Source: Syntrophomonadaceae bacterium (GTDB lineage: Bacteria; Bacillota; Syntrophomonadia; Syntrophomonadales; Syntrophomonadaceae). From it: DNA of 61,272 nucleotides. Below are positions 27,931 through 54,436 of the stretch, piece by piece; the first letter of the stretch is position 1; each line of letters opens with the position of its first letter. The stretch is taken from contig JACIYB010000001.1 in the NCBI GenBank assembly GCA_014360155.1, forward strand, positions 1 to 61,272. The letters run 5' to 3'. The translations under genes were made by a program, and so were the position numbers. Below the pieces are notes generated by a model, which was not told where the DNA came from, did no database searches, and saw nothing but the letters and a program-made list of their open reading frames with translations.

Positions 27931-28637
27931 TTACATACCCATCTCGAAAGCAGATTGTCTCACGGCCTCCTCATCAATATACTTGAGGCCCTTCTGGCAG
28001 CCGTAAATCAAGCTGGTGGTAGCGAGATTATTTACCAGTCGCGGCCAGCCCCGGTTTACGGTAGCGATGGCCTCTACAGCCGGCTCAGAAAATATGGGAT
28101 AATTGGCCCCGGCCAGGTTCATCTGGTGTTCCAGGTAGCTTTTAGTTTCGTTTTTAGATAAAGGACTCATCTTGTAACGCATAATAATCCTCTGGTTCAG
28201 AGGCTGGTGGTGGGTAAGGGAGAGCTTAAGAGCCAGATTAGGAAGGCCACACAATACCAGGGCGAACGGATTCTTAGAGTCCATCGAAAAATTAAACAAA
28301 AGATGCAGGTCACTTAAAAACCCGGTACTGGCCAACTGCAGTTCATCCAGGATAATCACCGGAACAATCTTCTTTCCAGAATAATGGTTTTGGATAGCAT
28401 CCTGAATCTGCCTAAACAGATCCACCTTCCGGAAGGCCGGTTCAATATTCAGGTTGTAGGCTAAACCCCGATAAAAATCAGTTACCGTAACCCACCACCA
28501 TACCAATTCCCCGGCTATCTTTAAGATAATTAAGCCGGGCTAAGAGCTCCTGGTGCGTAGATGATGGAAACAGCTTGTCAGCTTCAATTTCCTTGGTGAA
28601 GGGCTTAGATGATAGAGAGTAGAACGCGGTAAACACA
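27931..28637 (-). pseudogene. ExeA/TniB-like AAA+ transposition ATPase, disrupted (Walker A region deleted plus frameshift)
   Basis: An N-terminal fragment VFTAFYSLSSKPFTKEIEADKLFPSSTHQELLARLNYLKDSRGIG is readable at 28637-28507. It joins out of frame to VTVTDFYRGLAYNL...ILDELQ (Walker B), and no GxxGxGKT is present. Confidence 0.8.
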
Positions 28638-28639
28638 GG

Positions 28640-29730
28640 TTAATTCTCCTCCTTTTTCAATAGTGCTTCATGAAATGAAAGGGATGAAGCTAAAAGCTCA
28701 TTCTTATCACGATTGCGCTTAACCCTGGCGTTATCAGCGGCATTAACCGGGGTGGCGCGGGCAACGAACTTATCATCAACAAATACCAGTACCTCATTCA
28801 GGTTTTCTGGTTCAAAACGCACCTGGACCTTCTGACCAATCAGTGTTGGCGGCACCTCGAATAAGCGTTTTAAAATAGAGATGGTGGCATCGTTATTAAC
28901 CCGGCGGTTTTCCCTTTTCATAAACAGTTGTTGCACCCAGGTTGGATCATTTACTATCTTGACCTGCTTAACCTGGGTCAGATACTTGTCCAGTGGCGAC
29001 ATGCCCAGAGATGAGTGTACCCGGCGGTGGTAATCTTCCTCCAGCCATTACCAGAAGGATTTGTTCAACTCTTCCAGAGAAGTGATGGGTAGACCTTCTT
29101 CATAGCTTCAAAATTCTGCTTAAAAGAGAACTCGGCAAAAGTAACTAAACGAGAACAGTCATCGATAAATGCAAAAAGATAACAGGGTTTCTTCTTTCCC
29201 TTAATCAGCAGGTAGGGACCGGTCATCATATCGCCCTGCCACATGCGATTGACTTCATTGTAGGCAAAACGTTTACGGTCTTTAGGTTGAGCTGATTCTT
29301 CTACCAGTGGTTTAACCAGATTACGAGCTTTAAGGAAACGGTAGACCGAATGGTAAGAGACCTCGGAACGCAGTATGAGCCCTTCTCTGGCCATCTGGTC
29401 ATAAAAAAGCATTACACTTAAGCCGGGATTGTCATGCCGGTAATTAATAATTTTCTTTCCCAGTTCATCACTTATGACCCGAGAAGTCCCCTTGTCTTTA
29501 CGGTTCTGAGGCTTAAGTCCATCCAGGTTATCCCGGCGGTAATCCCAAAGCCATCGGCGGATAGTTCGTTCACAGTATTCTCTTTTACCATAGTAAGGGA
29601 CATCATGGATCTGGGATGTAATCTTTTCTAGGTAGGCCTTGGGGTCGTCCACCTGGTTGTTCAAGAGCGGGGCAATAAGACCAAAGCGAAACAGGGCAAT
29701 TTCCAGCTTCTGTTCTTCATTTAAAGCCAT
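28640..29730 (-). pseudogene. DDE (rve/Mu-type) transposase with an internal deletion of the catalytic core
   Basis: ORF 29730-29065 carries the HTH N-terminus and the first catalytic region (WQGDMM, AFIDDCSR), then breaks. ORF 29002-28640 carries only the Mu-transposase C-terminal barrel. The middle DDE part is missing. Confidence 0.8.
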
Positions 29731-29864
29731 AATGAAGCACCTCCAAAAAATGAATGGAGGATTAACCGGTTAACCTCATACCAGAATTTTAAACAAAATG
29801 CCTTAATACCGCCACGCAAAAGCTCTGTGGGATAATAAAATCTTCCAAAAACCAAGCAAGAATG

Positions 29865-30404
29865 TTAAAATGATCTTGCCATAAAGTTAGTTAGGATACG
29901 GTTGGTTGCACATTGACTTGTCAGGGTCAATGCACTTGGAGGAGTGACCGCTAACCGATCCACTATCTTTATGGCTCTTTTGTTTTGGTTATAAGGAAGT
30001 GCTTCATCCCAGTGCTGCTCTCTAAGGGCACTGATGATAGCGGGAATATTATTCAAGAAGCGGTGGCGATAAAAGGCGGAAAGCTGTCGGGAAAGAAAGG
30101 AGCCGGCTTTTTTGAACTGTTTACGTAAGCTTTTCAGGATGGTATCCCGGGTATACTGGAAGTACGGTAGGAGAAACCACGGCAAAAGAGATACGGTTCT
30201 GCCACAGGATGGGCACCAATACCGGCAAATATCAATTCGATAGCATTTGGTCCTTACCAGGGCGTTGCGCTGGTAGAAACCATGTCGTTCCAATTTTACT
30301 TGGGCACAGCAGCAGGGACATTCAGTCATCACCGGATAAACCACCGAGTACCGGTCTTTTGCATAGGTTTTAATGTCTACAGTTAGATTCCAAATAATCT
30401 GCAA
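29865..30404 (-). CDS. DUF6431-like Zn-ribbon protein (transposon-associated)
   Basis: CPCCCAQVKLERHGFYQRN...YWCPSCGRTVSLLPWFLLPYFQY. By recollection this family sits upstream of this transposase type in Firmicutes. Confidence 0.6.
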   Translation of the reverse strand: MQIIWNLTVDIKTYAKDRYSVVYPVMTECPCCCAQVKLERHGFYQRNALVRTKCYRIDICRYWCPSCGRTVSLLPWFLLPYFQYTRDTILKSLRKQFKKAGSFLSRQLSAFYRHRFLNNIPAIISALREQHWDEALPYNQNKRAIKIVDRLAVTPPSALTLTSQCATNRILTNFMARSF

Positions 30405-30684
30405 AATATTAACCTCCCCATTTAAACTGCAAATATTTTAGCAAATTGGGAAGGTTCTAAGTTTGTTCTTGATGAATAAGATTTTGCTATAAAAACCTCC
30501 TAATTGTTACTAAGAAATGTGCAAGATAACACTTTTTCGGAAATATAACCATCTTAAATAAAGGCAAGAAAACGGCAACCTTGCAACTGTTAAGATCTAT
30601 TAGAACGGCCTAAATATTAAAGGGGATTTTTTTTATTTTTTAAAATCCCAAAGTAAATTGACACGATCACTTATTGGAAAATCT

Positions 30685-30713
30685 TTGTATTTGCTTAAGT
30701 AAAAGGATATACT
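30685..30713 (+). promoter_or_regulatory. Putative sigma-A promoter of the DUF499 operon
   Basis: TTGTAT (30685-30690), a 17-nt spacer, then TATACT (30708-30713), about 65 nt upstream of ORF 30780. Confidence 0.4.
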
Positions 30714-30779
30714 GGTATAAGAGAATTATATAAAATTAATACAAATACCATATATAAATTGGCATAAATTAGAAAGCGG

Positions 30780-31043
30780 GTGTTTTTTATCAAAACCTTC
30801 TATAAAAACCAGAAAGAGGTAGCTGAAGCTATTAATAATACAATCGATAGCTATTGGAAAAATGATACCGATGATGAAGAAATGATTAGGCAAATCAAAT
30901 TCATTGCCAGGAATAATGATTCTTTGCTTTTTAAAGATGGGGATTATACCACATTAATTAAACAGAGATGTGGAAAGAGACGTCTTGAGATTGTAAATAA
31001 AATCTTGCTGTTAAAAGAAACCCAACAGAAAATGGAGGGATAG
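30780..31043 (+). CDS. Small hypothetical protein (87 aa), first gene of the DUF499 operon
   Basis: ORF with a GTG start that ends 6 nt before the DUF499 ATG and contains that gene's RBS. It may belong to a small Firmicute family (TIGR04540-like, recollection only). Confidence 0.45.
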   Translation: MFFIKTFYKNQKEVAEAINNTIDSYWKNDTDDEEMIRQIKFIARNNDSLLFKDGDYTTLIKQRCGKRRLEIVNKILLLKETQQKMEG

Positions 31044-31049
31044 CTAATT

Positions 31050-34000
31050 ATGTCATTGTTTAATCTCTGCAAACCAAGGGAAAGCGTATTTGATGAAACA
31101 AAACGGGATGATGTAATAGACTTAACTAATCTTGCAGATAACAAAATTAACCCTAAAGAATTCTTTGAGGAAAACTTTGTAACACAAGGGATGAACATAT
31201 TATTAGAAACGGCTTTCAAGCGCTTTAATCGGCAAGGTGCTACTGGTGTGATTAAGCTTACCCAGTCCATGGGCGGCGGCAAAACCCATAACATGATAGC
31301 TCTGGGGCTATTAGCCAAGTATCCTGAATATAGGGAACAAGTTATGGGTGATCGCTTTAAGAACAGCAAACTGGGAGAAATTAAGGTGGTTGCCTTTACC
31401 GGACGGGAAAGTGATGCTCCATATGGTATATGGGGTGCAATAGCAGAACAGCTCGGGAAAAAAGAAGTATTTAAAGATTACTACAGTCCTTTACAGGCCC
31501 CCGGGCAAAAAGCGTGGGAAAATCTATTAAAAGGCGGACCCTTGCTCATTTTGCTTGATGAACTTCCACCCTATTTAGATAACGCAAAATCAAAAACTAT
31601 TGGAGATAGTAATTTAGCAGCCGTTACCACAACCGCTCTGGCCAATCTCTTTAACGCAATTGGCAAAGAGGAACTTTCTAATGTCTGCCTTGTAATCTCC
31701 GATTTAAAGGCAACATATGAAAGCGGAAGTGAATTACTGCAATCCAGTTTTAAGGAACTGGAAAATGAGGTTAACCGTTTTGCCTTAAATATTGAGCCCG
31801 TCGGTTCAACATCAGATGAGGTTTATCACATATTAACCAAAAGGCTTTTTAAAAAGCTTCCTAATGCAAAAACCATTAATGAAATAGCTAATGAGTATAA
31901 AAAAGCTGTGTCCGAAGCGAAACAAATGGGCTATACCAATATCTCCCCGGAACAGATCTTTATGGGCATTAAAGACTCATATCCTTTTCACCCGTCAATT
32001 AAGGATTTGTATGCCCGTTTTAAAGAGAATGAGAATTTCCAGCAGACGAGAGGGTTAATTCGCTTAATGAGGCTAATCGTAGCCCAGTTATACAGGGGTG
32101 ATCAGCCAAAAGCCAAAGAAAAGCAGCTGATAAATGTCTATGATTTTGACCTAAAAGACCCGGAGATGCTAACATCCATTACACAAATCAAACCATCTTT
32201 AACCAATGCCATCTCTCATGATATATCCGCAAACGGCAAGGCTATTGCAGAGGTAGTAGATGCATCAATGAATGAGACTTGTATGCAAGAATTAAGCAAA
32301 TTGATTCTGGTAGCTTCGCTGGCAGATGTTCCAAACGCTTTGCTGGGACTAACATTTAGAGAAACTATTGGCTACCTGGCAGAACCAAACAAAGATATTA
32401 CCCGTGTAAAGAAAGCCTTAGACGAATTCGTCATGCAAGCATGGTATTTGTACACCGATAGAGACGGAAGGCTTTTCTTTAAAAATACAAAGAACATGAT
32501 CGCAGAACTCAATTCTTTAGTAGACTCTTATGATTCTGATAACGCCAAAAAAGAACTGAGAACATTCCTGGAAGAAAAATTTAAGCCCTCAATCCATAAT
32601 GACTGTTATCAAAAGGTACAGGTGTTCCCAGCTGTTGACGAAATTAACCTGACCGAAGATAAAGTGCTTTTGGTGCTCTTCGAGCCATATACAGGTTCAT
32701 CTGCTAAGTACCAGGGGCTACACCCTGATCTGGCTAACTTCTATGACGACGCCCGTTATAAGAACAGGGTTATGTTTTTATCCGGGCAAAGAAGCACAAT
32801 GGACAAATTAATAAAAGCTGCTAAAGAACATAAAGCAATAAATGTTATTATTGGAAGGATGGAAGAGGAAAAAGTAGCGGCTAACAACCCTCAATACCAG
32901 AAAGCAGTAGAAAAGTTACATAAGATCAAGCTGGAACTCCTGCAGGCCTCCCGAGAAACATTTGTGAGTCTTTATTACCCGGCAAAAAATGGTTTAATGA
33001 AGGCCGACTTTTTCATGGAATTTACCGGGAATGAATACAACGGCGAAAAGCAGATTAGAGATGTTTTAATTCAAAGGCAAAAGTTTACTGAAAACATCAC
33101 AGATGAAACTTTCAGGAAAAAATGTGAGGATCGTCTATTTACTCAAAAGGAAATGCGTTGGAGTGATGTTAAAGAAAGAGCTGCAACAAATCCATTATGG
33201 CAATGGCATAAGATGAATGCCCTTGATTTTTTAAAGGATGATATGCTCAAAAAGAATATTTGGAGAGAAAACGGTGGGTATATCGAAAAACCTCCCTTCC
33301 CTAAGGAAAAAACACAGGTACAGGTCCAGGAACTTCGTAGAGATGATCAAACTGGAGAGGCTACCTTAAAGCTCATACCTAAATATGGTGATAAGGTTTA
33401 CTACGAAGTAGGTGGTGTTGCTACCGAGGCTTCCAGCCCTGTAGAAAATCTTAATGAATTTAAAACAAAGGAGCTAAAACTTTCATTTCTTTGTGTAGAC
33501 AGCAAAGGAGAGCATGAAACCGGTGAACCGGTGGAATGGAAAAATAAAATCACAATAAAATACAGGGTATACGACAAGGGTGACAACAAGATAGTAGAAC
33601 TAATATCAGCCCCTGATGTGCCGATTAAATACACTACTGATGGCTCTAACCCAAAGGATCATGGAGGAATTTATGATTCAGAGGTTATCATCCCTAAGAA
33701 CACCACCTACGTTTTAGCTGTTGCTGAAGCAGAAGGAATATATTCAGACCCCTTATCTATTAAGATAGATTGGCAGAAGGACAGCAGTCTCCAGGTTGAT
33801 AAGAATAAATCCTTAAAATTGGATAAAAGGTCTAAGACCAATGATACAGCAGAGACCTATCAAGAGCTTTCCATGTTAAAAAAGCATAACGCCAAGTTGA
33901 TGGATGTGATAGTAACATTTTTTAAAACTGATGAAAACAATAATGATAAGGGCTGGATTGAATTAACAGTCGATGCAAAAACCACGGTTAATATTGAAAA

Positions 34001-34172
34001 CCTGGAAAGCAGTATGGAAAATGTTAGAGATAATTTTATGAAAGATGGCAGGGTTAATATTAGTCTTGAATACGGTGCTGTAAAGTTTGAAACTGGCCAA
34101 CACTTTCTAGATTGGATTGCAGAAAAGAAGAAAGCCCTAAAGGAATTTACTAGACAGGAGATTGTGCAATAA
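31050..34172 (+). CDS. DUF499-type P-loop ATPase (1040 aa)
   Basis: Walker A LTQSMGGGKTHNM, Walker B PLLILLDELPPYL and a long C-terminal extension. Confidence 0.8.
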   Translation: MSLFNLCKPRESVFDETKRDDVIDLTNLADNKINPKEFFEENFVTQGMNILLETAFKRFNRQGATGVIKLTQSMGGGKTHNMIALGLLAKYPEYREQVMGDRFKNSKLGEIKVVAFTGRESDAPYGIWGAIAEQLGKKEVFKDYYSPLQAPGQKAWENLLKGGPLLILLDELPPYLDNAKSKTIGDSNLAAVTTTALANLFNAIGKEELSNVCLVISDLKATYESGSELLQSSFKELENEVNRFALNIEPVGSTSDEVYHILTKRLFKKLPNAKTINEIANEYKKAVSEAKQMGYTNISPEQIFMGIKDSYPFHPSIKDLYARFKENENFQQTRGLIRLMRLIVAQLYRGDQPKAKEKQLINVYDFDLKDPEMLTSITQIKPSLTNAISHDISANGKAIAEVVDASMNETCMQELSKLILVASLADVPNALLGLTFRETIGYLAEPNKDITRVKKALDEFVMQAWYLYTDRDGRLFFKNTKNMIAELNSLVDSYDSDNAKKELRTFLEEKFKPSIHNDCYQKVQVFPAVDEINLTEDKVLLVLFEPYTGSSAKYQGLHPDLANFYDDARYKNRVMFLSGQRSTMDKLIKAAKEHKAINVIIGRMEEEKVAANNPQYQKAVEKLHKIKLELLQASRETFVSLYYPAKNGLMKADFFMEFTGNEYNGEKQIRDVLIQRQKFTENITDETFRKKCEDRLFTQKEMRWSDVKERAATNPLWQWHKMNALDFLKDDMLKKNIWRENGGYIEKPPFPKEKTQVQVQELRRDDQTGEATLKLIPKYGDKVYYEVGGVATEASSPVENLNEFKTKELKLSFLCVDSKGEHETGEPVEWKNKITIKYRVYDKGDNKIVELISAPDVPIKYTTDGSNPKDHGGIYDSEVIIPKNTTYVLAVAEAEGIYSDPLSIKIDWQKDSSLQVDKNKSLKLDKRSKTNDTAETYQELSMLKKHNAKLMDVIVTFFKTDENNNDKGWIELTVDAKTTVNIENLESSMENVRDNFMKDGRVNISLEYGAVKFETGQHFLDWIAEKKKALKEFTRQEIVQ

Positions 34173-34741
34173 TGGCAGAAAAAAAGGTTTCTTTTGGATT
34201 TGGCTTTATACCGTCAGAATCACAACACCATTTTCTCGTGTTGATTCCAAGAAAGCAAGACGAGGAAGTTTATATATACGAAAGATTCCACTGGCAGGAA
34301 GATAAAGAAAATCAAAGTATAGATCTGCGAAACGATAGGCCGAAGGTAAGGCTAACAAAACATAAATGGAAAAAGATTGAGGACACCCTGCGGTTGGAAT
34401 TCAATGAAAGATTAAAAAAAGAAAATATCCTGGTGGGCAAGTGGCATATTGGGCAGGTGCCGGTACAACGCCTTATGGGAAAAGAAATGGTTCTTTTGGC
34501 CTGGGCCATTGAAGATTGCGATCCTTCGGTTATCCCCACTGCTATAAAAAATTGGTTAGGATTAAGCCCGGAAGAACGCTGGTGGCTTTTTACCATGACC
34601 AATGCAGCCACCGGGGGCATTAATGACAAACGTGGCTGGAGGAAGGCCGTCAGATATGCCCTATCTGAAAATCCCATAGAAGAACGGAATAAACAATTAA
34701 GCTTATTTGATTTAACTATTCAGAGAGAGATAGACAAGTAG
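34172..34741 (+). CDS. DUF3780-like small protein (189 aa)
   Basis: TAATG overlap with the DUF499 stop. Assigned from its position between the DUF499 and DUF1156 genes; the family name is recalled, not verified. Confidence 0.55.
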   Translation: MAEKKVSFGFGFIPSESQHHFLVLIPRKQDEEVYIYERFHWQEDKENQSIDLRNDRPKVRLTKHKWKKIEDTLRLEFNERLKKENILVGKWHIGQVPVQRLMGKEMVLLAWAIEDCDPSVIPTAIKNWLGLSPEERWWLFTMTNAATGGINDKRGWRKAVRYALSENPIEERNKQLSLFDLTIQREIDK

Positions 34742-34756
34742 GAAGGAAGTGACAGG

Positions 34757-37666
34757 GTGCTTGACTATGATAAATCATTTATAGAAGTTCAATTTCCGGT
34801 GTCCAAGGTATCCAAGGAGAGCTATAAAGAGAGAAAAGCTAATTTAGGACAAACCTTAACGGGACTGGGTAAATGGTGGGGACGGAAGCCCTTAATACTG
34901 GCTCGTGCCGCAATTTTAGGCCTGCTTATGCCAGTAAGCCAAGACCCCATAAAGGATAGGGAAGTATTTTTAAAAATATTATCTATGGATGATGAAGGCC
35001 TCTGGCAGAGAAAACAAAAGTCCATATCAACTCAGGATATATACGATAATCTGACAAAAAGTGAGCAGCAGAAATATTTTGAAAAAGATACCAAAGGTAA
35101 GCTTAAATATAAAAAAAGTGTCACCAAGGAAGAAAGGGTAAACCTTCAAAAGCTTGTTTTTAATCGCTTTTCTTATGACCAAAAACTTACCTTTTGCATT
35201 AGACCCGAGGAACTTGAAAATATCTCCCAAGATCAGTGGGATATTATCAATGAGCATCTGGGAACTAAAGCTGCCAATATCCAGGAGCTTATACAACAGC
35301 TGGGAGAAAAAAAGTTTGGCAAAACGCCATTAGTAGGGGACTGTTTTGCCGGGGGCGGGAGCGTCCCCTTTGAAGCGGCCAGGTTAGGCTGTGATGTGTA
35401 TGCTTCAGATTTAAATCCCATTGCCATGCTTCTTACCTGGGCAGCCCTGAACATTAACGGAGCCAGCGATGAGGAAATTAAAGAATTAAAAGGGTTTCAG
35501 GAGAAAATTTTTAACTTGGCGGATAAGCAAATAACAGAATGGGGAATAGAGCATAACGAACAAGGCCATAGAGCTAATTCTTACTTATACTGCCATGAAA
35601 CCATATGCCCTGAGTGCGGATATAAAATTCCTCTGGCCTCTTCTTGGATTATCGGTGTTAGAACAAAGACTGTTGCCCTTCTTAAAGAAAATAATGACAA
35701 AGGTTATGATATAGAGATAATTTCCAATGCTTCAAAAGAACAGATAAATTTGGCCGAAAGCCTAGCTACAATTCAAAACAGCAATTTAAAATGCCCTCAC
35801 TGTAACATGACAACTCCTATAACCACTATTAGAAAAGATCGAAAAGTAAACGGAACTATAGAATACGGCCTTCGTCAGTGGGGGGCAAAAGAATTTCTCC
35901 CCAGAGAGGATGATGTCTTCCAGGAGAGGCTATATTGTGTCAGATATGTCAAAGAATACGTCGATGAGAAAGGTAATTTAAAAACGGAACGATATTATCA
36001 AGCCCCTACTACAGAAGATTTAGCAAGAGAAGATAAAGTGGTTGAGCTTTTACAGGAAAGATTCGACGAGTGGCAAGATAAGGGATATATCCCCAGCAAT
36101 AGAATTGAAGAAGGGTATAATACAAGTCAAATTATAAGAGAAAGAGGCTGGGCTTACTGGCATCAGCTTTTTAATCCGAGGCAGTTGCTTTTAAATGGAC
36201 TTATCTCCTTCTTAATTTCAAAAGAAGCAGGCAGCAAAACCAAAAAATCTATTGGGTTACTTGGTTTAAATAAATGTACTGATTATAATTCCAAGTTAAG
36301 TCATTGGAATTCAAACGCGGCTAACGAAAAAGTAGAACATACCTTTTATAATCAAGCATTAAATACATTTTATGTTTACGGAAGTAGAGCATTAGAGGCA
36401 TTAAGGGTGACATGGTTTTATAACATAAATAATTTCAATATTGATATAAAGAATAACATGCAAGTGACAGATGCAAGAAATTTAACTGAAGCAAGCCATG
36501 TATGGATTACCGACCCCCCTTACGCTGATGCGGTCAATTATCATGAATTAAGCGAATTTTTCCTTGCATGGGATAAAAAAATGTTACTAGAAATATTCCC
36601 GGAATGGTATGCAGACAGTAAAAGGGCTTTGGCAGTTACAGGAAGTGGTCTAAGTTTTAATGAAAGTATGATAGAAATATATAGTAATCTTGCAAATCAC
36701 ATGCCCGAGAATGGTATGCAGGTAGTTATGTTTACACACCAAGACCCCAGCGTGTGGGCAGAACTAACTTTAATTTTATGGTCTGCAGGCCTTAGAGTCA
36801 CTGCTGCCTGGAATATTGCTACGGAAACCGATGCAAGTGGGCTTAAACAGGGGAATTATGTAAAAGGAACGGTACTCCTCGTCCTTCGCAAGCAGGAGTC
36901 TGATGATACCGCCTACTTTGATGAACTGTATCCCGAGGTGGAGGAAGAAGTAAAACGGCAGATAGACAGTATGAGAGAGCTTGACGATAAGGAAGACCCA
37001 AACTTTTCTGATGCGGATTATCTCCTGGCAGCCTATGCCGCCTCTCTAAAGGTATTAACCTCATATAAGCAAATTGAAGATATAGATGTAAAATATGAAT
37101 TATCAAAGGATAGAAATTCAGGCGAAGAATCACCCATAGAAAAAATTATTAATGAGTCCATTAAGATAGCATATGACTATTTAACCCCTACGGGCTTTGA
37201 TTCTTTTACCTGGAAAACATTAAAGCCAGAAGAAAGGTTCTATATTAAAGGGTTGGAATTTGAAAAAGACGGCATTTATCAAATTGGTGCCTATCAAGAG
37301 CTGGCCAGGGGCTTTGGGGTGAAAGAATATAAGGATTTGCTGGCAAATACAAAAGCCAATCAAACCCGTTTAAAAACGGCTGCTGAATGGAGCATGAAGG
37401 GCATGAGTGGAACCGATAATTTTGGCTCCTCTCTGCTCCGTAATGTATTGGCAGCCCTTTATCAATGTATTAAAGGAGAAGATACAAGTAAGGGAAGAAA
37501 TTGGCTGAAAAATGAAGTGCCAAACTACTGGAATCAGAGAAACACCATTATGGAATTGCTGGACTTTTTGATAACCCTTGGCCATCATGTGCATATGGAA
37601 CATTGGGATAAAGAAGTGTACTATGCAAAGATGCTGCGGGAACTGGTCAAAAATGACGGGGTATGA
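34757..37666 (+). CDS. DUF1156-type N6-adenine DNA methyltransferase with a Zn-ribbon insert
   Basis: N-terminus FPVSKVSKES...KWWGRKPL, SAM motif I DCFAGGGSVPFEAARLG, Zn ribbons CPECGYKI and CPHCN, catalytic motif IV WITDPPYADAV. Confidence 0.85.
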   Translation: MLDYDKSFIEVQFPVSKVSKESYKERKANLGQTLTGLGKWWGRKPLILARAAILGLLMPVSQDPIKDREVFLKILSMDDEGLWQRKQKSISTQDIYDNLTKSEQQKYFEKDTKGKLKYKKSVTKEERVNLQKLVFNRFSYDQKLTFCIRPEELENISQDQWDIINEHLGTKAANIQELIQQLGEKKFGKTPLVGDCFAGGGSVPFEAARLGCDVYASDLNPIAMLLTWAALNINGASDEEIKELKGFQEKIFNLADKQITEWGIEHNEQGHRANSYLYCHETICPECGYKIPLASSWIIGVRTKTVALLKENNDKGYDIEIISNASKEQINLAESLATIQNSNLKCPHCNMTTPITTIRKDRKVNGTIEYGLRQWGAKEFLPREDDVFQERLYCVRYVKEYVDEKGNLKTERYYQAPTTEDLAREDKVVELLQERFDEWQDKGYIPSNRIEEGYNTSQIIRERGWAYWHQLFNPRQLLLNGLISFLISKEAGSKTKKSIGLLGLNKCTDYNSKLSHWNSNAANEKVEHTFYNQALNTFYVYGSRALEALRVTWFYNINNFNIDIKNNMQVTDARNLTEASHVWITDPPYADAVNYHELSEFFLAWDKKMLLEIFPEWYADSKRALAVTGSGLSFNESMIEIYSNLANHMPENGMQVVMFTHQDPSVWAELTLILWSAGLRVTAAWNIATETDASGLKQGNYVKGTVLLVLRKQESDDTAYFDELYPEVEEEVKRQIDSMRELDDKEDPNFSDADYLLAAYAASLKVLTSYKQIEDIDVKYELSKDRNSGEESPIEKIINESIKIAYDYLTPTGFDSFTWKTLKPEERFYIKGLEFEKDGIYQIGAYQELARGFGVKEYKDLLANTKANQTRLKTAAEWSMKGMSGTDNFGSSLLRNVLAALYQCIKGEDTSKGRNWLKNEVPNYWNQRNTIMELLDFLITLGHHVHMEHWDKEVYYAKMLRELVKNDGV

Positions 37667-40398
37667 GCAGGAGGAAAGCTATGGTTTACCGCTATTCATC
37701 CAGATTAAAGCCACTGGACGAATCATTTCTTAATAAAAAATTAGAAGGAGCAAAAAGTTATGACCGGATAGCAGGTTATTTTAGTTCTTCTATTTTTGAA
37801 GTGGCCGGAGAAGCAATTGAAAAAATGGAGGGGAAAGTCAGAGTTGTTTGCAACTCAGACTTAGAGGTTGAGGACGTTAGAACGGCCAGCGCCGCCATGA
37901 ATGCCATGCGAAAAGAATGGTGTGCTGCCAAACCGGAAGAGTTATATCAAAATGCCCCTGTCAGATTAAAAAAGCTGTATAACTTAATTAAAGATGGCAA
38001 ATTGATGGTTAGGGTTATTCCTAACAAAGTTTTTGGGATGATACACGGTAAGGCAGGAGTTATAACCTTAATTGATGGCCAAAAAACGGCTTTTATTGGC
38101 AGCGCTAATGAAACTTCTTCGGCATGGAAGCTTAATTATGAATTGCTTTGGGAGGATGATTCTCAGGAAGCAATTAGTTGGGTGCAAGAAGAGTTTGACT
38201 ACTTTTGGAATAGTCCTTATGCTATTCCCCTTTCTGAGTTTGTAATAGAAGATATTAATAGAATTGCGGAAAGAAAGGTTATTTATTCAGTAGACGAGTG
38301 GAAAGAAGAAGCAAACCCGGGCTCTACTGTTGTTGAATCTCCGGTTTATAGACAAGAGTATGGTCTTTGGGAGCATCAGAAGTTTTTTGTAAACCTTGCC
38401 TTTACTGACCATAAAAAGCCCTATGGTGCAAGATATGTGTTGGCTGACATGGTAGGGCTGGGTAAAACCATCCAACTGGCTTTATCTGCCCAATTAATGG
38501 CACTTTATGGAGACAGGCCGATTCTTGTCATTGCACCTAAAACCCTTCTCTGGCAGTGGCAGGAAGAATTGAACTCGCTTTTGGACATGCCTTCAGCGGT
38601 ATGGAACGGTAAAGAATGGGTTGACGAAAATGGCATTAAATATCCCAGCAGCGGTGAGGGATCTATAAAAAAGTGCCCCAGAAGAGTGGGTATTATTTCA
38701 CAGGGTCTAATTACGGCCAGGTCTCCCCTGGTGGACCATCTGCTTACAATGGATTTTGAGTGTGTTATTGTGGATGAAGCACACAGGGCCAGAAGGAAAA
38801 ACCTTGGCCCTGATAAGGAAGATGAAAAGCCAAACCCCAATAATTTAATGAAATTTCTCCTGGAAATATCACCAAAAACAAAAAGCATGCTCCTGGCAAC
38901 AGCTACCCCTGTACAGCTTTATCCCATTGAGGCCTGGGATCTGTTATATATATTATCCCAAGCGAATAATAGTGTCCTTGGCAGCAATTTAAGCTTGTGG
39001 AGAAGAAAGCCAGGACAAGCGATTAGATTAATTATGGGAGTGGATAAATTAGACAGATTTAATCCTGAAGTGATTGACTGGATAAGGAATCCTTTTCCGC
39101 CGGCGTCAGAGAACCCTTTAACCTTTGGTAGGATAAGGAATCGTCTAAATATGAAAGAGGAAGATTTTCTTATCAGGCCGGAACAAATAGACTCTCTCCA
39201 AAATACCCCGGACGGACGGAGAATAGGCAGGATAATAGATGATGACTTTATGGCCAGGCATAATCCTTTCATCAGGCACATTGTGAGAAGAACTCGTGAT
39301 TTTCTGGAGAACACTATCAATGAAGAGACGGGGGAGCCTTATCTGAAAAGGATTAAAGTAAACCTGATGGGAGAAGCGGAAGATGAGGCCATTATACTGC
39401 CTCCCTATTTACAAGAAGCTTATGAACATGCAGAAAAGTTTTGTGAGCTCCTTCAAAAGCGTGTCAAGGGAGGCGGGTTTTTAAAAACCTTACTCTTAAA
39501 GCGCGTTGGCAGCACCATGGAAGCAGGCAAAAACACAGCCCAGAAAATGCTTACCAACTGGGGTGGCCTCGGCGATGAAGAAGACTTTGAAGATGAGGAT
39601 ATTTCAGAAGAACTCGTCAGTCAAAGTGAAATAAAAAATATCACAGAGGAAGAAAAAGCATGCTTGCAGCGATTTATACATTCGTTGGAAGCCAACAAGG
39701 GAAAAGATCCCAAATATCAGCTTGTTTTAAGCCTTCTTAAAGATAACAAGTGGATGGAGCTGGGTTGTATTATTTTTTCACAGTATTATGACTCAGCCTA
39801 TTGGGTGGCCGAAAACTTGTCCAGGGAATTAAAAACAGAAAAAATTGGTATCTATGCCGGGGGAGATAAGTCAGGAGTTTTATATGATGGTATTTATAAA
39901 CGTAAGTCTAAAGAAGAAATAAAGCAGATGATAAAAAGGAGAGAACTAAAGATTTTGGTTGGAACAGATGCAGCCAGTGAGGGCCTTAACCTTCAAACCC
40001 TGGGGACCCTCATAAATCTGGACCTACCATGGAACCCTACCCGTCTTGAACAAAGAAAAGGAAGGATACAGAGAATTGGACAGGTTTATGACGAAGTATA
40101 TGTTTACAATATGCGGTATAAAGGATCCGTAGAAGACAGGGTGCATTCTTTACTTTCAGCCAGGCTAGAAAACATTTATGGTTTATTTGGGCAAATTCCA
40201 GATGTGCTGCAGGATGTATGGGTGGAAGTTGCTTTAAATAATATAGCTGAAGCGAAAAGAAAGATTGATGAAGTGCCAAAGCAGCATCCCTTTGAACTCC
40301 GTTATCACGTCCATGTGGGAAAGGTTAACTGGGAAAACTGTGCAGTGGTATTAGATGCAAAAGAAAAAAGAAAACATTTGATGAATGGCTGGAAGTAA
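37663..40398 (+). CDS. PLD-nuclease / SNF2-family helicase fusion protein
   Basis: ATGA overlap with the methyltransferase stop. Single HKD motif HGKAGV...GSANETS. Helicase motifs DMVGLGKT, IVDEAHRARR, LLATATPVQ and QRKGRIQRIGQ. Confidence 0.88.
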   Translation: MSRRKAMVYRYSSRLKPLDESFLNKKLEGAKSYDRIAGYFSSSIFEVAGEAIEKMEGKVRVVCNSDLEVEDVRTASAAMNAMRKEWCAAKPEELYQNAPVRLKKLYNLIKDGKLMVRVIPNKVFGMIHGKAGVITLIDGQKTAFIGSANETSSAWKLNYELLWEDDSQEAISWVQEEFDYFWNSPYAIPLSEFVIEDINRIAERKVIYSVDEWKEEANPGSTVVESPVYRQEYGLWEHQKFFVNLAFTDHKKPYGARYVLADMVGLGKTIQLALSAQLMALYGDRPILVIAPKTLLWQWQEELNSLLDMPSAVWNGKEWVDENGIKYPSSGEGSIKKCPRRVGIISQGLITARSPLVDHLLTMDFECVIVDEAHRARRKNLGPDKEDEKPNPNNLMKFLLEISPKTKSMLLATATPVQLYPIEAWDLLYILSQANNSVLGSNLSLWRRKPGQAIRLIMGVDKLDRFNPEVIDWIRNPFPPASENPLTFGRIRNRLNMKEEDFLIRPEQIDSLQNTPDGRRIGRIIDDDFMARHNPFIRHIVRRTRDFLENTINEETGEPYLKRIKVNLMGEAEDEAIILPPYLQEAYEHAEKFCELLQKRVKGGGFLKTLLLKRVGSTMEAGKNTAQKMLTNWGGLGDEEDFEDEDISEELVSQSEIKNITEEEKACLQRFIHSLEANKGKDPKYQLVLSLLKDNKWMELGCIIFSQYYDSAYWVAENLSRELKTEKIGIYAGGDKSGVLYDGIYKRKSKEEIKQMIKRRELKILVGTDAASEGLNLQTLGTLINLDLPWNPTRLEQRKGRIQRIGQVYDEVYVYNMRYKGSVEDRVHSLLSARLENIYGLFGQIPDVLQDVWVEVALNNIAEAKRKIDEVPKQHPFELRYHVHVGKVNWENCAVVLDAKEKRKHLMNGWK

Positions 40399-40419
40399 AA
40401 AACTGAGTGGTGTTTAAAA

Positions 40420-41715
40420 ATGAAAGATAAAGAATATATTGTTTTTGATCCAAGAGACTTTATCCGTAGCCCCTTTTGGACATGCCCTAAATGTGGTGCT
40501 ACAGATAGTTTTGGTGTATTAATGATCTGCGCAAATCATTATGTAAGAAGATGTAAAAACTGCAGATTTGATGATTCATTCTCTCTTCCAAAACTAAACA
40601 AAAAAATATTATATATTGATCAAATGGCTATTAGTAACATGATGAAAGCTTTGAATCCAGCAACTAAAGCCTACCAAAAAGGAACTGTTGATAATTTCTG
40701 GTTTGAAATGTTCGAGAAGCTTGATACATTAGTAAAGTTACAGGTTTTAATTTGTCCAGACTCATGTTCTCATATGGATGAATCAATCTTGTCTGCTTTT
40801 TACCAGCCATTGAAGCGTATGTATGAATTACTTTCTCATGGTGTCTCTTTTTATGACAGTCAAACGATAAAGCGCTTTCAGATTATAAATCATGTAGAAA
40901 AATACATCTCTGGCAAGTCAGCTGAAATCGATTTAGATATTCACAGAATAGTACATGGAAATATTAATGACTGGCAGGATAGATTTATTATATCTGTTTC
41001 ATCAAATATAGGTGAAGAGTTGATAGATGAGATTCGAGAGCATAGAGAAAAAGCGCATGAACAGTTTGTGGAAATTGCTAAATACTGGCAATCATGCAAA
41101 GACAAAAGTTTTCAGGATTTCTTTGAGACAGAAGCTAAGGCTTTTGGTGAAACTAATATTCAGGTTTATTTAAGATTCAACGAAAGAATAGCTTATCTTG
41201 CAAAAAACCCAGATAAAATTATGTCACCTTTAGAGTTTATGCCTCCTGATGCGGTTGTTTTAATAAATGAAATAGCATCACATTTTATAAAAGCAGGCGT
41301 CTCGGAGTCGGAGGGGTTAGTTCAGGCTTTTAAATACTTAACATCCCCTAGTATGAGAGATATCCCTTTCATAAAAATATCTTCAATGCTATATGCAGCC
41401 CTGGCTAGAAAATATGTATCAGGTCGAAAAAAACCGCCTAATCAAGGGATGTTTACAGATATTGAAACAATTTCCCTACTGCTACCTTATTGTGATGCGA
41501 TGTTTATAGATAACGAATGCCATGGATACTTACAAGAAAACCCACTAAAAGAAAGCATTAATTATAATGCAAGAACATTTTGTCAAAATACTAAAAAGGA
41601 GTTTTTCGAATATCTTGATAAAATTTTTTCAGATATATCGCCTGAACACATAAGTAAGGTCCAAGAGGTATATGGAAGCGATTGGCCCCAACCATATACA
41701 AGTCTTTATAAATAA
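40420..41715 (+). CDS. Hypothetical protein with an N-terminal CxxC...CxxC Zn ribbon (431 aa)
   Basis: CPKCGATDSFGVLMICANHYVRRCKNCRF. Acidic motifs ILYIDQMAISN, HMDES, FTDIETIS and MFIDNE are weakly PIN-like. It starts only 21 nt after the helicase gene. Confidence 0.6.
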   Translation: MKDKEYIVFDPRDFIRSPFWTCPKCGATDSFGVLMICANHYVRRCKNCRFDDSFSLPKLNKKILYIDQMAISNMMKALNPATKAYQKGTVDNFWFEMFEKLDTLVKLQVLICPDSCSHMDESILSAFYQPLKRMYELLSHGVSFYDSQTIKRFQIINHVEKYISGKSAEIDLDIHRIVHGNINDWQDRFIISVSSNIGEELIDEIREHREKAHEQFVEIAKYWQSCKDKSFQDFFETEAKAFGETNIQVYLRFNERIAYLAKNPDKIMSPLEFMPPDAVVLINEIASHFIKAGVSESEGLVQAFKYLTSPSMRDIPFIKISSMLYAALARKYVSGRKKPPNQGMFTDIETISLLLPYCDAMFIDNECHGYLQENPLKESINYNARTFCQNTKKEFFEYLDKIFSDISPEHISKVQEVYGSDWPQPYTSLYK

Positions 41716-41779: not shown

Positions 41780-42772
41780 GTGTACAATATCAAGGGTAAA
41801 AAAGCAGAAAAAATTGAAGCTGTAACTTTTTCTGATTTAGGCATGCAGGAAAACGATATAGAAGAAATTCTTAGATGTAGCGTTGACATGTTATGTGACG
41901 ATGAAGACTCAATGCTTATAGTTGGGCGCCAGGTTAAGAATGACAAGTTGGGCAGAAGCGACCTTACAGCAGTGGATAATAATGGGAACATTGTATTAAT
42001 TGAAATTAAAAGGGACCGCAAGGATATTGAAGGCAGGAAAGAGTCCTTTGAATTTCAAGCTATACGTTACGCTGCAAGCTATGCCACCATTGAGAGCCCG
42101 GATGATCTTGTAAAAAAAGTCTATGCGCCTTACATTGAAAAATATCGCAGCGAATTTGAACTAGGAGAGCTTACTTCTTATGAGCTTGGAATTAGGAAAT
42201 TAAATGAGTTTTTAAGGATTAATGAAGCTGAAAAGAACTTCAATAAAAAACAAAAGATAATATTGGTTGCCTCGGATTTTGATGAGCAGACACTTTCAGC
42301 GGTGGCCTGGCTAAATAGCAATAATGTGGATATGAGCTGCTTCAAGCTTACTCCATATAAGCTCCAGGAAAATGTTTATTTGCATACAGAAAAACTGCTT
42401 CCGGTAACTAAATGCGATGACTACTATGTAAACCTTATGGACAAAACCCTACCCGCTAATGTAAAGAAAAATAAAGATATTACCAGGCGCTCACTTCCTA
42501 AAATTGATGCAATGCTCGATTGGGGAGTTGTAAAAGAAGGTGATACTATTATTGCAAAAGGCAGAGAAGAGGAAGGAACCCTTCTCGCTAATGGAAATGT
42601 CATGGCTGATGGCAAAGAAAAATCCATGCAAGTGTGGTTAAAGGAAATTTATGGCTGGTCCAGTGTTCAAACTTATGTGTTTGCAGTTCATAAAGAAAGC
42701 GGAAAAACACTATCGCAGATACGAGAAGAATATATGGAGCAGCAGGCAAAGAAAACTGCAGAAGAAGCGTAA
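41780..42772 (+). CDS. NucS-like PD-(D/E)xK endonuclease-domain protein (330 aa)
   Basis: GTG start after an AAGGAGG RBS. Motif RSDLTAVDNNGNIVLIEIKRD...FQAIRYAASY. The C-terminal ~90 aa domain is unassigned. Confidence 0.65.
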   Translation: MYNIKGKKAEKIEAVTFSDLGMQENDIEEILRCSVDMLCDDEDSMLIVGRQVKNDKLGRSDLTAVDNNGNIVLIEIKRDRKDIEGRKESFEFQAIRYAASYATIESPDDLVKKVYAPYIEKYRSEFELGELTSYELGIRKLNEFLRINEAEKNFNKKQKIILVASDFDEQTLSAVAWLNSNNVDMSCFKLTPYKLQENVYLHTEKLLPVTKCDDYYVNLMDKTLPANVKKNKDITRRSLPKIDAMLDWGVVKEGDTIIAKGREEEGTLLANGNVMADGKEKSMQVWLKEIYGWSSVQTYVFAVHKESGKTLSQIREEYMEQQAKKTAEEA

Positions 42773-42803: not shown

Positions 42804-43560
42804 GTGGCGCTGTATGAAAAATCAGTCAAACTCCTTTTCCGAGATATGATAAAAGACCTCGCTATTCAAAAAGGAGAAGTTATAGAGAGAGACAAAATAA
42901 ATTCCTGGTTCAAGACAAAATATCCACTCATAAAGCCTGGCACTATCTCAGCTCATATGCTTAAGTTGTCAACTAATGCCCCAAGCCGAATACATTACAA
43001 CGTTGATTCAAATGGTAAAAAAGATGATCTTTTTTTTTCAGATTGATAGCAAAAAGTTCCGACTCTACGACCAATCTTCTGATCCAGACCCTATCTATTT
43101 CAGACAAAAAGAAGATGAGAAAATAACGCCAGAACATGAAGGATCAGAAGAAGAGAATGGGAATGAATTCGCCTATGAGAAAGATCTTCAGAATTTCTTG
43201 GCAAAGAATCTATCCCTTATTGAGCCGGGTCTATCATTATATTTGGAAGAGGAAATCAGCGGTATCGAATTCCCGGTAGGGAACCGATTCATCGATATAT
43301 TGGCAATCGATAGTAATAATAATTATGTGGTTATAGAACTTAAGGTATCGCGTGGATACGACAGGGTTGTAGGCCAAATCCTTCGCTATATGGCATGGAT
43401 CAGAAAAAACCATGCGGAAGAAAGTCAGAAAGTACGGGGCATAATAATCGCCCGCGAGATTTCGGATGATCTTCTGCTAGCATGTTCTGAGATAAATAAT
43501 GTTGAGTTGTACGAATATAACTTATCGATAACGTTGAATAAAATAAAGAAAAATAGGTAA
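42804..43560 (+). pseudogene. NucS-like PD-(D/E)xK endonuclease-domain protein split by a +1 frameshift in a T9 tract
   Basis: ORFs 42804-43046 and 42976-43560 join seamlessly if one T is removed (…KKDDLFFQIDSKKFRLYD…). The C-terminal part has RFIDILAIDSNNNYVVIELKVSRGYDRVVGQILRYMAW. Confidence 0.75.
43030..43038 (+). repeat. T9 homopolymer at the frameshift site
   Basis: gatc-ttttttttt-cagattg. Nine consecutive T. Confidence 0.95.
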
Positions 43561-50687: not shown

Positions 50688-50806
50688 CAAGGCGATCAGG
50701 GAATCAATTAATTTTTCGATAACGAAACAAGAATGGCAGGGTATTACGGAGCTGTTGACCTGAGGATAGCTGCAGAAGCATTACCTTGCAGAACAGGAGG
50801 TTTTCC

Positions 50807-54281: not shown

Positions 54282-54436
54282 CAAATATAACTAAGTGGAG
54301 TTGGGTCGTAGAGAGTGATAAACTAATGACAGTTATGAACAATTGGAAAAAGAAGCTCATTTTTTTGCTGCATGTGTATTAGCTCCTCATATTGTATTAT
54401 ATAAACTCGTTGACGATGAAAGTGAAGACTATGGTT

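What the first reader, a model, noticed from the sequence alone, without database searches (positions are those of the whole stretch)
30780..40398. Translationally coupled RM-like operon: small ORF, DUF499 ATPase, DUF3780-like protein, DUF1156 Zn-ribbon N6-methyltransferase and PLD-SNF2 helicase
Seen directly: Walker A/B motifs in the 1040-aa ATPase, motif I and DPPY plus two Zn ribbons in the methyltransferase, and one HKD motif plus all SNF2 motifs in the last gene. The junctions are TAATG (34170-34174) and ATGA (37663-37666), and the first ORF lies 6 nt from the ATPase gene. From memory, comparative-genomic surveys of defence islands have flagged the DUF499/DUF1156/helicase association as a predicted modification-based defence, and it may be what PADLOC calls Hma. 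As far as I know the mechanism is uncharacterised: the role of the ATPase, how a single-HKD nuclease is licensed, and what DUF3780 does. The 87-aa leading ORF is not part of the arrangement I remember.
Basis: partly seen in the sequence, partly recalled or inferred. Interest (0 to 1): 0.72.

Follow-up and report, generated by a model that had tools for sequence, protein, structure and literature searches.

The report
MANTIS (Gao_RL) defence operon with leader
This is an intact copy of a known, experimentally studied anti-phage system (Gao_RL, also called MANTIS or BREX-related type 2); the one fresh point is that its small first gene belongs to an unstudied protein family that heads many different methylation-based defence operons in Firmicutes.

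Summary
The five ORFs, their junctions and nearly all the motifs are present as described. The four large genes are a textbook Gao_RL / MANTIS / "BREX-related type-2" system: mtsA (DUF499 AAA+ ATPase), mtsB (DUF3780), mtsC (DUF1156 N6-adenine methyltransferase) and mtsD (HKD-PLD nuclease fused to a Swi2/Snf2 motor). They match the dedicated PADLOC and NCBIfam models over their full length. Hma models (BR type-1) match only partly, so "Hma" is a near miss.

The mechanism is no longer unknown. Phage defence was reported in 2020. A 2026 comparative survey classified the system. A September 2026 preprint showed ATP-dependent hemimethylation of an asymmetric 6-bp site by MtsABC, and restriction that needs all four proteins.

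The 87-aa leading ORF is a real gene of family TIGR04540 / PF27871 (CLB_0814). In every intact context I sampled (12 lineages), a member lies directly upstream, on the same strand, of a methyltransferase-based defence operon: MANTIS (six lineages), BREX-1, BREX-3, type I, type III or MmeI-like. Close relatives of this operon carry a weakly supported RHH-like gene at that position instead. I infer a portable regulatory module, a positional analogue of the MtsR repressor. This is not shown, and no paper I could search mentions the family.

The parts
30670..30779 (+). Upstream block that travels with the leader gene. It contains a -10-like GATATACT and three ATA[CT]A[AG] hexamers at -52, -41 and -28 relative to the GTG. 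I propose it as a candidate promoter and operator.
   Evidence: Homology to L017 and L018 (99% and 95%) starts at about 30669-30672. The block aligns with the upstream regions of leader genes that head other defence systems. The consensus promoter scan did not call a promoter here.
30780..31043 (+). 87-aa leader gene of family TIGR04540 / PF27871 (CLB_0814). It is a small helical protein with an invariant KQR(C/S)GKRRLE motif. I propose it as a regulator.
   Evidence: NCBIfam TIGR04540 scores 94.6 bits against a cut-off of 50. Alignment A1 has 65% mean column identity. The AF2 model has pLDDT 85.8 and is helical. There is no match in the PDB by fold or by sequence.
31050..34172 (+). mtsA: DUF499 AAA+ ATPase (ORC/Cdc6 clade) with an FnIII-like module in the C-terminal region.
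   Evidence: PDLC02192, 1.4e-199. NF042962 scores 802.7 bits, below its 1200 cut-off. Pfam DUF499 covers 127-373, and CHB_HEX_C_1 / Fn3_assoc cover 846-899. Walker A is at 75-79 and Walker B at 165-171.
34172..34741 (+). mtsB: standalone DUF3780 protein. In the P. aeruginosa system this protein is required to stimulate methylation.
   Evidence: Pfam PF12635, 2.3e-50. PDLC02191, 2.1e-49. NF042961 scores 173 bits, below its 200 cut-off. The start overlaps the mtsA stop (TAATG).
34757..37666 (+). mtsC: N6-adenine DNA methyltransferase with an N-terminal DUF1156 domain. The target-recognition region lies between motif I and DPPY.
   Evidence: PDLC02189, 1.2e-286. NF042963, 1408 bits (above cut-off). 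Pfam DUF1156 covers 12-72. Motif I is at 193-201 and DPPY at 586-589. The least conserved stretch among eight relatives is aa 480-580.
37663..40398 (+). mtsD: single-HKD PLD nuclease domain fused to a Swi2/Snf2 helicase-like motor. It is the effector.
   Evidence: PDLC02193, 1.3e-246, residues 7-910. NF042964, 1339 bits (above cut-off). Pfam PLDc_2 covers 26-182, SNF2-rel_dom 238-433 and Helicase_C 700-806.
40420..41715 (+). Adjacent 431-aa gene that may be co-transcribed (22 nt after mtsD). It has an Elf1-like zinc ribbon plus a helical domain of unknown fold. It is not a conserved MANTIS component.
   Evidence: No Pfam, PADLOC or NCBIfam hit. At least 688 homologue clusters across phyla. The AF2 model has pLDDT 91.6, and only the ribbon matches ELOF1. 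It is absent after mtsD in L001, L002, L003 and L005.

Best explanation
Window 31050-40398 encodes an intact MANTIS system (Gao_RL, BREX-related type-2). By homology with the P. aeruginosa system, I infer the following. MtsA uses ATP to load the monomeric methyltransferase MtsC onto a short asymmetric recognition site. MtsB stimulates methyl transfer to one adenine on one strand. ATP hydrolysis by MtsA recycles the machinery. Unmethylated sites on incoming DNA, recognised by MtsABC, license a dimer of MtsD. A single HKD motif per chain means the nuclease site can only form across a dimer. MtsD then translocates and cuts, most efficiently between sites in inverted orientation.

What is shown here: gene content, gene order, coupling and catalytic motifs. 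What is inferred: all of the biochemistry, and the recognition sequence, which is unknown.

The gene at 30780-31043, together with about 110 bp upstream, is an exchangeable 5' module. I propose that its product is a small DNA-binding autoregulator that sets the expression of the operon. That would make it a positional analogue of the Arc/CopG repressor MtsR and of type II controller proteins. This is inferred from context only.
For: System identity:
- The four dedicated PADLOC models and the NCBIfam "anti-phage-associated" models match over their full length.
- The published BR type-2 hallmarks are all present: a standalone DUF3780 gene between the ATPase and the methyltransferase, an N-terminal HKD on the helicase, FnIII-like hits in the ATPase tail, and DUF1156 on the methyltransferase.
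- Every catalytic residue class that was mutated in the P. aeruginosa study has a counterpart here.
- mtsABCD is a discrete cassette. DNA homology to L001, L002 and L005 runs from the mtsA start (31052-31056) to the mtsD stop (40398-40402). Protein identities are 70-85%.
- MtsC diverges most at aa 480-580, inside the insert before DPPY. This fits the finding that the TRD sets specificity.

Leader:
- The family match is above the curated cut-off.
- A member sits directly upstream of MANTIS in C. botulinum, Intestinibacter, Paenibacillus and three metagenomic lineages. Members also head BREX-1, BREX-3, type I, type III and MmeI-like operons.
- The upstream DNA is conserved across different downstream systems and carries periodic ATA[CT]A[AG] repeats.
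- The close relatives L001 and L002 carry a weakly RHH-like gene at the same position.
Against: - No methylome or phenotype data exist for this host.
- MtsA and MtsB score below the NCBIfam equivalog cut-offs (803 vs 1200 and 173 vs 200). They are divergent members.
- The mechanistic source is a preprint. It did not detect MtsD nuclease activity in vitro and leaves the role of MtsB open.
- For the leader: there is no HTH or RHH signature and no fold match. The consensus scan called no promoter upstream.
- The hexamer repeats are AT-rich, several of the loci are related, and the repeats are absent in L037 and L038.
- The context sample is small: 14 lineages, 12 of them intact.
Confidence: 0.85

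Rival explanations
1. The operon is an Hma system (BR type-1).
For: HmaA, HmaB and HmaC models do hit the three large proteins. Hma and MANTIS are sister subtypes of the DUF499-centred BR systems.
Against: The Hma hits are partial and 150-250 orders of magnitude weaker than the DUF499 / DUF1156_MTase / PLD_Helicase models. A standalone DUF3780 gene is present, and the helicase carries an N-terminal HKD. Both are type-2 hallmarks. Type-1 has an N-terminal TUDOR domain and usually a C-terminal PD-(D/E)XK nuclease.
Confidence: 0.03
2. The leader protein is not a transcription factor. It is a protein-level accessory, for example a modulator or chaperone of the methyltransferase, or an inhibitor that delays restriction. 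It would be shared by systems that all contain an adenine methyltransferase.
For: The only component common to all its partner operons is a DNA methyltransferase. There is no recognisable DNA-binding fold. The gene lies close to (6 nt in the window) or overlaps the next gene in several loci.
Against: The partner methyltransferases belong to unrelated architectures (type I HsdM, type III Mod, MmeI-like, PglX and DUF1156 alpha-group), so one shared protein interface is unlikely. The gene travels with a conserved upstream non-coding block. Regulator-type genes (a weakly RHH-like gene here; MtsR in P. aeruginosa) occupy the same position in other MANTIS loci.
Confidence: 0.2
3. The leader ORF is a hitch-hiking neighbour or a remnant of island architecture with no functional link to the operon.
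For: Close relatives of mtsABCD lack it. The island is full of transposase debris.
Against: Position and strand are identical in all 12 intact lineages examined, with gaps from an overlap up to 176 nt. The same leader-plus-MANTIS module occurs in different flanks in Paenibacillus. The amino-acid sequence is strongly conserved, with 21 invariant columns.
Confidence: 0.05
4. The operon is a decaying, non-functional relic.
For: It sits beside fragmented Tn7/Mu-like and other transposase genes in a low-GC island. Some relatives do carry split genes: mtsC in L033 and mtsA in L036.
Against: All five ORFs are full length relative to their models. Every catalytic motif is intact, and the coupled junctions are preserved.
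Confidence: 0.07

Closest known systems
MANTIS / Gao_RL (Gao_29) / BREX-related type-2 system (P. aeruginosa AZPAE15024 MtsABCD; E. coli system of Gao et al. 2020)
   Same: It has the same four proteins in the same order: a DUF499 AAA+ ATPase, DUF3780, a DUF1156 alpha-group N6-methyltransferase with FxGxG and DPPY, and a single-HKD PLD plus SF2 motor. All the residue classes shown to be essential are present. The divergent region of the methyltransferase lies in the TRD.
   Different: This copy is Firmicute and divergent; MtsA and MtsB fall below the NCBIfam equivalog cut-offs. The recognition site is unknown. There is no Arc/CopG MtsR, and a TIGR04540-family gene occupies that position instead. 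A 431-aa gene of unknown function follows 22 nt after mtsD.
Hma (BR type-1) and BREX type 3 (BrxC / PglXI / BrxHII)
   Same: They share the tripartite logic of a DUF499/BrxC-like ATPase, an N6-methyltransferase and a Swi2/Snf2 helicase. They are expected to share hemimethylation-based self-marking.
   Different: There is no TUDOR-helicase, no C-terminal PD-(D/E)XK, and no PglZ, BrxA, BrxB, BrxF or BrxL. DUF3780 and the N-terminal HKD are type-2-specific.
Type III and type ISP restriction-modification enzymes; SauUSI
   Same: The recognition site is asymmetric and hemimethylated. The methyltransferase directs the nuclease, and an ATP-driven motor communicates between sites with a preference for inverted orientation. 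MtsD resembles the dimeric PLD-helicase SauUSI.
   Different: An extra AAA+ loader and DUF3780 are needed even for methylation. The orientation requirement is graded rather than strict.
Defence-operon regulators: type II controller (C) proteins, BrxR (WYL) and MtsR (Arc/CopG)
   Same: The leader is a small gene at the 5' end of a modification-based defence operon, and it is exchangeable between systems. MtsR acts as a repressor.
   Different: The TIGR04540 protein shows no HTH, WYL or RHH signature and matches no solved fold. DNA binding has not been tested.

Membership tests
MANTIS / Gao_RL / BR type-2 | DUF499-clade AAA+ ATPase with intact Walker A and Walker B | tested here: met
   PDLC02192, 1.4e-199, residues 7-1018. 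Pfam DUF499, 1.7e-25. GGGKT 75-79 and LLILLDE 165-171. The NF042962 score of 803 is below the 1200 cut-off.
MANTIS / Gao_RL / BR type-2 | Standalone DUF3780 gene inside the locus (98% of type-2 taxa) | tested here: met
   PF12635, 2.3e-50. The gene lies between mtsA and mtsC.
MANTIS / Gao_RL / BR type-2 | [quoted passage not shown] | tested here: met
   PF06634, residues 12-72. PDLC02189, 1.2e-286. NF042963, 1408 bits against 1000. FAGGG within 193-201 and DPPY 586-589.
MANTIS / Gao_RL / BR type-2 | Effector with an N-terminal HKD/PLD nuclease fused to a Swi2/Snf2 helicase (83% of type-2 taxa) | tested here: met
   PLDc_2, residues 26-182. SNF2-rel_dom, ResIII and Helicase_C are all present. 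PDLC02193, 1.3e-246. NF042964, 1339 bits against 1100. H128/K130 and GLGKT 265-269.
MANTIS / Gao_RL / BR type-2 | FnIII-like beta-sandwich modules before the C-terminal domain of the ATPase (53% of type-2 taxa) | tested here: met
   CHB_HEX_C_1 and Fn3_assoc hit at 846-899. Only one module was detected by sequence.
MANTIS / Gao_RL / BR type-2 | Hemimethylation of an asymmetric 6-bp site that requires MtsABC and ATP | not testable with these tools
   Needs methylome data or biochemistry. The feature is defined.
MANTIS / Gao_RL / BR type-2 | Phage and plasmid restriction that requires all four proteins | not testable with these tools
   Needs cloning and challenge experiments.
Hma (BR type-1) | Three-gene locus without DUF3780; helicase with an N-terminal TUDOR domain and usually a C-terminal PD-(D/E)XK nuclease | tested here: not met
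   DUF3780 is present. The helicase N-terminus is PLD. Hma HMMs match only in part.
Canonical BREX (types 1-6) | PglZ together with BrxC (DUF6079) and subtype-specific BrxA, BrxB or BrxL | tested here: not met
   No such hits among the ORFs of at least 120 aa scanned from 26.1 to 51.8 kb. The ATPase matches DUF499, not DUF6079.
DISARM | DrmA helicase plus DrmB (DUF1998) core | tested here: not met
   There are only partial DrmD- and DrmC-like similarities to MtsD. The NF038317 score of 161 is far below the 610 cut-off. No DrmA or DrmB is present.
TIGR04540 / PF27871 (CLB_0814) family (leader ORF) | Score above the curated model cut-off, as a standalone protein of about 80 aa | tested here: met
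   94.6 bits against 50, residues 5-76 on model positions 1-72 of 73. Homologues carry a precomputed PF27871 assignment.
Arc/CopG (RHH) MtsR-type repressor or HTH controller protein (leader ORF) | RHH or HTH DNA-binding fold or signature | tested here: not met
   No Pfam hit. The AF2 model is helical and has no PDB fold match better than E 0.63.

The most novel reading that the evidence does not exclude
The TIGR04540 / CLB_0814 family, together with its conserved upstream block, is a previously unrecognised portable control module. It would be a new type of small DNA-binding regulator with a fold unlike HTH, RHH or WYL. Bacillota would plug it in front of otherwise unrelated methyltransferase-based defences (MANTIS, BREX-1, BREX-3, type I, type III, MmeI-like) to balance modification against restriction.
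Probability: 0.45. Interest if true: 0.5.

Novelty: new member of a known kind. Interest (0 to 1): 0.3.

Why it matters
The operon itself adds a Clostridia-type example to a family that is already catalogued in more than a thousand taxa and is now mechanistically studied. Its value is mainly correct annotation: Gao_RL / MANTIS, not Hma.

The more useful lead is the leader gene. MANTIS, BREX and the classical RM types all face the same problem of establishing methylation before restriction. A single small protein family that heads all of them in Firmicutes would give a common, easily testable handle on how these systems are regulated. It would also serve as a marker for finding further methylation-based systems.

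Tried and rejected
- Hma, BREX and DISARM classifications were rejected on HMM coverage and missing core genes.
- I looked for solved structures of MtsA-D relatives by sequence. There were none for MtsA, MtsB or MtsC, and only generic SNF2 and RapA hits for MtsD. The MANTIS structures are not in this PDB copy.
- Fold and sequence searches for the leader protein found nothing informative (best Foldseek E 0.63).
- Fold search for the 431-aa neighbour matched only its ELOF1-like zinc ribbon.
- No paper in the library mentions TIGR04540, CLB_0814 or PF27871.
- There was no near-identical DNA in plasmids, and no leader relatives in viral contigs.
- The consensus promoter and terminator scan was at background level. 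It called no promoter upstream of the leader and no terminator within the operon that stands out from the shuffles.
- Rfam found no RNA family in 30-40 kb.
- I could not predict the recognition sequence. No reference TRD sequences with known sites were available.
- I did not identify the host species. Its relatives are Clostridia and Thermoanaerobacterales.
Full report
**Observation**

The junctions are as stated: TAATG at 34170-34174, ATGA at 37663-37666, and 6 nt between the first ORF and the ATPase gene. Fifteen nucleotides separate the DUF3780 gene from the methyltransferase gene. The block lies in a low-GC stretch (0.35-0.41 across roughly 29-44 kb, against 0.41-0.49 in the rest of the window).

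The domain assignments hold with very large margins.
- ATPase: Pfam DUF499.
- 189-aa protein: DUF3780.
- 969-aa protein: DUF1156 plus a weak D12-class methyltransferase hit.
- 911-aa protein: PLDc_2, SNF2-related, ResIII and Helicase_C.

The motifs are present.
- ATPase: Walker A GGGKT 75-79 and Walker B LLILLDE 165-171.
- Methyltransferase: motif I VGDCFAGGG 193-201 and DPPY 586-589.
- Last protein: one HxK...GSxN motif (H128, K130), GLGKT 265-269, DEAH 371-374, TATP 413-416 and QRKGRIQRIGQ 797-807.

The only overstatement concerns the zinc ribbons. The methyltransferase has just two CxxC knuckles (284-287 and 346-349). That is enough for one four-cysteine site, not two ribbons.

**What it is**

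PADLOC holds four models named DUF499, DUF3780, DUF1156_MTase and PLD_Helicase (PDLC02189-02193). They match the four large proteins end to end, with E-values from 1e-199 to 1e-286 for the three large proteins and 2e-49 for DUF3780. The Hma models match only in part, at 1e-32 to 1e-49.

NCBIfam has a matching set of four "anti-phage-associated" equivalog models (NF042961-NF042964). The methyltransferase and the PLD-helicase exceed the curated cut-offs. The ATPase and DUF3780 fall below them (803 vs 1200 and 173 vs 200). This copy is therefore a divergent but complete member.

The literature identifies the four-gene set.
- They assign loci with a standalone DUF3780 gene (98% of taxa), an HKD plus Swi2/Snf2 effector (83%) and FnIII-like modules in the ATPase tail (53%) to type 2. 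They found type 2 in 1120 taxa.
- In their scheme Hma is part of the same DUF499-centred BR group of systems, and its architecture matches their type 1.
- The Pfam CHB_HEX_C_1 and Fn3_assoc hits at residues 846-899 of the ATPase fit the FnIII feature.
- Shaw et al. (bioRxiv 10.64898/2026.09.23.753747, 24 Sept 2026) rename Gao_RL (Gao_29) as MANTIS and place it in BR type-2.

**How it most likely works (by homology; not shown here)**

In the P. aeruginosa system:
- MtsC hemimethylates an asymmetric 6-bp site (CAACAC, or CAACAG in a relative).
- Methylation needs MtsA with intact Walker A and B, MtsB and ATP.
- MtsC cannot bind DNA unless MtsA loads it.
- Restriction needs all four proteins, plus the PLD histidine and the helicase Walker A of MtsD.
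- Swapping the MtsC TRD switches the specificity of both activities.
- Inverted pairs of sites are restricted best.
- MtsD is a dimer that resembles SauUSI.

Every residue class mutated in that study has a counterpart here.

Two local observations fit this model.
- mtsABCD behaves as a discrete cassette. DNA homology to three Clostridia and Thermoanaerobacterales relatives starts at the mtsA start codon and ends at the mtsD stop. Protein identities are 70-85%.
- Among eight relatives, MtsC is least conserved at residues 480-580, inside the insert just before DPPY. This is the expected pattern if the TRD diversifies specificity.

Some limits of the source remain. MtsD nuclease activity has not been reconstituted, and the role of MtsB is unresolved. 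The preprint writes "DUF3870" where Pfam and the NAR paper have DUF3780.

**The leading ORF**

It is a real gene. It scores 94.6 bits against NCBIfam TIGR04540 (CLB_0814 family; cut-off 50). Its homologues carry Pfam PF27871. An alignment of 15 members has 21 invariant columns, including KTFYKNQ and KQR(C/S)GKRRLE.

The family has at least 672 clusters at 90% identity, and every source name listed for them is from Bacillota. It has 153 representatives at 50% identity, almost all standalone proteins of about 80 aa. None was found in viral contigs.

The AF2 model is confident (pLDDT 85.8) and helical. It matches nothing in the PDB by fold (best E 0.63) or by sequence. No paper in the library mentions the family.

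*Context is the informative part.* The closest relatives of this operon lack the leader. Two of them (L001 and L002) have a 120-129-aa gene at the same position. By eye it looks like a tandem ribbon-helix-helix gene. Its Pfam support is weak: sub-threshold NikA-like and DUF6290 hits. MtsR, an Arc/CopG repressor, occupies this position in P. aeruginosa.

I picked family members by similarity and contig length, not by neighbourhood. Every intact locus shows the gene directly upstream, on the same strand, of a methyltransferase-based defence operon.

| Downstream system | Loci and organisms |
|---|---|
| MANTIS (six lineages) | the window with L017 and L018; L015; L010; Intestinibacter bartlettii L034-36 with L022-26 and L028; C. 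botulinum L031-33, the family's namesake species; Paenibacillus L039-41, in different flanks |
| HKD-Snf2 / DUF4391 / type III Mod-Res operon | L008 and L009 |
| Type III Mod | L012-14 and L021 |
| Type I HsdM-S | L011 |
| BREX type 3 | L027 |
| BREX type 1 | L037 (Metabacillus) |
| MmeI-like enzyme with helicase | L038 (Sutcliffiella) |

The two exceptions are disrupted loci. In L019 and L020 the leader is followed by two ORFs that look like an inserted IS21-type element (transposase and helper by eye; not scanned against a family library). L016 is degenerate.

Leader similarity does not follow the system type. The leaders of L008, L012 and L021 (type III) are 68-71% identical to the window's. 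Those of the more distant MANTIS loci are 52-55% identical.

*The non-coding DNA upstream travels with the gene.* Homology to L017 and L018 begins about 110 bp upstream of the GTG. This block aligns across loci with different downstream systems. It contains a -10-like GATATACT followed by two to four ATA[CT]A[AG] hexamers spaced roughly 10-13 nt apart:
- window: -52, -41, -28
- C. botulinum: -45, -34, -23
- L010: -39, -28, -18

TACA[AG] occurs 16 times in ten 75-nt leader regions, against 2.1 expected from shuffles (0 of 2000 shuffles reached 16).

There are caveats. Several of these loci share ancestry, the sequence is AT-rich, the repeats are missing in L037 and L038, and the consensus scan called no promoter here.

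*My reading.* The leader and its upstream block form an exchangeable regulatory module. The protein is most likely an autoregulator that plays the role MtsR, BrxR or C proteins play elsewhere. This is an inference from position and co-inheritance, and DNA binding is untested. The main alternative is a protein-level modulator of the methyltransferase. It is less likely, because the partner methyltransferases have unrelated architectures.

**Surroundings**

The operon lies in a defence island.
- Left flank, opposite strand: fragments of a Tn7/Mu-like transposase and AAA protein, and a DUF6431 gene.
- 22 nt after mtsD: a 431-aa gene with an Elf1-like zinc ribbon and a confidently modelled helical domain. 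It has no fold match. Its family is widespread and unannotated, and it is not conserved next to MANTIS.
- Further right: two NucS-like PD-(D/E)XK proteins (PDC-S11 with RAMA, and PDC-S02), a complete ZacABC system with an overlapping PRiA4_ORF3 gene, another PDC-S11, transposase fragments and two HEARO RNAs.

**Verdict**

The general interpretation (a modification-based defence) is right, but the name and the "uncharacterised" status are not.
- The operon is a new member of a known, already validated kind.
- As a discovery its interest is low.
- The association of the TIGR04540 leader with many methylation-based defences is a modest, apparently unreported lead that is easy to test.

Noticed in passing
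window 40420-41715 (+): A 431-aa protein starts 22 nt after mtsD. It has an N-terminal Elf1/ELOF1-like zinc ribbon (CxxC 22-25 and 45-48) and a large helical domain. The model is confident (pLDDT 91.6) but has no PDB fold match. There is no Pfam, PADLOC or NCBIfam hit. At least 688 homologue clusters span Firmicutes, Planctomycetes and Leptospira. It is not found after mtsD in relatives.
   Followed up: partly
window 41780-42772, 42976-43560 and 50786-51757 (+): Three NucS-like PD-(D/E)XK candidate defence genes. The first is PDC-S11 with a C-terminal RAMA domain, the second is a NucS_C / PDC-S02-like protein, and the third is a PDC-S11 with DUF4268. They could be the kind of auxiliary nuclease effectors described next to BR systems.
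   Followed up: partly
window 43645-50687 (+): A complete ZacABC system with full-length PADLOC matches: ZacA (DUF6361), ZacB (PLD-like) and ZacC (helicase). A PRiA4_ORF3 gene overlaps the ZacC stop, which suggests a fourth, coupled gene.
   Followed up: no
window 27931-30404 (-): Fragmented Tn7/Mu-like transposition genes (AAA_22; rve plus HTH_32; Mu-transpos_C) and a DUF6431 gene lie immediately left of the operon. The island may have arrived on a Tn7-like element that has since decayed.
   Followed up: no
window 54434-54656 and 56543-56766 (+): Two HEARO (IscB-associated) RNAs flank a class-III aminotransferase gene (55141-56529). A truncated RRXRR plus HNH, IscB-like ORF follows at 57170-57709.
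   Followed up: no
L001 7478-7840; L002 9547-9936: The closest relatives of this operon carry a 120-129-aa gene directly upstream of mtsA, in place of the TIGR04540 gene. By eye it looks like a tandem RHH gene, and its Pfam hits (NikA-like, DUF6290) are sub-threshold. The 5' regulatory slot of MANTIS therefore appears exchangeable.
   Followed up: partly
L011 12675-12938: A second, divergent TIGR04540-family gene (35% identical to the window's) lies in the same island as the first, downstream of ThsB-TIR genes. Its own downstream partner is cut off by the contig end.
   Followed up: no
L033 10933-13879; L036 7262-10361: In some C. botulinum and Intestinibacter genomes, mtsC or mtsA is split into two ORFs. 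This could be natural inactivation or phase-variation-like disruption of MANTIS.
   Followed up: no
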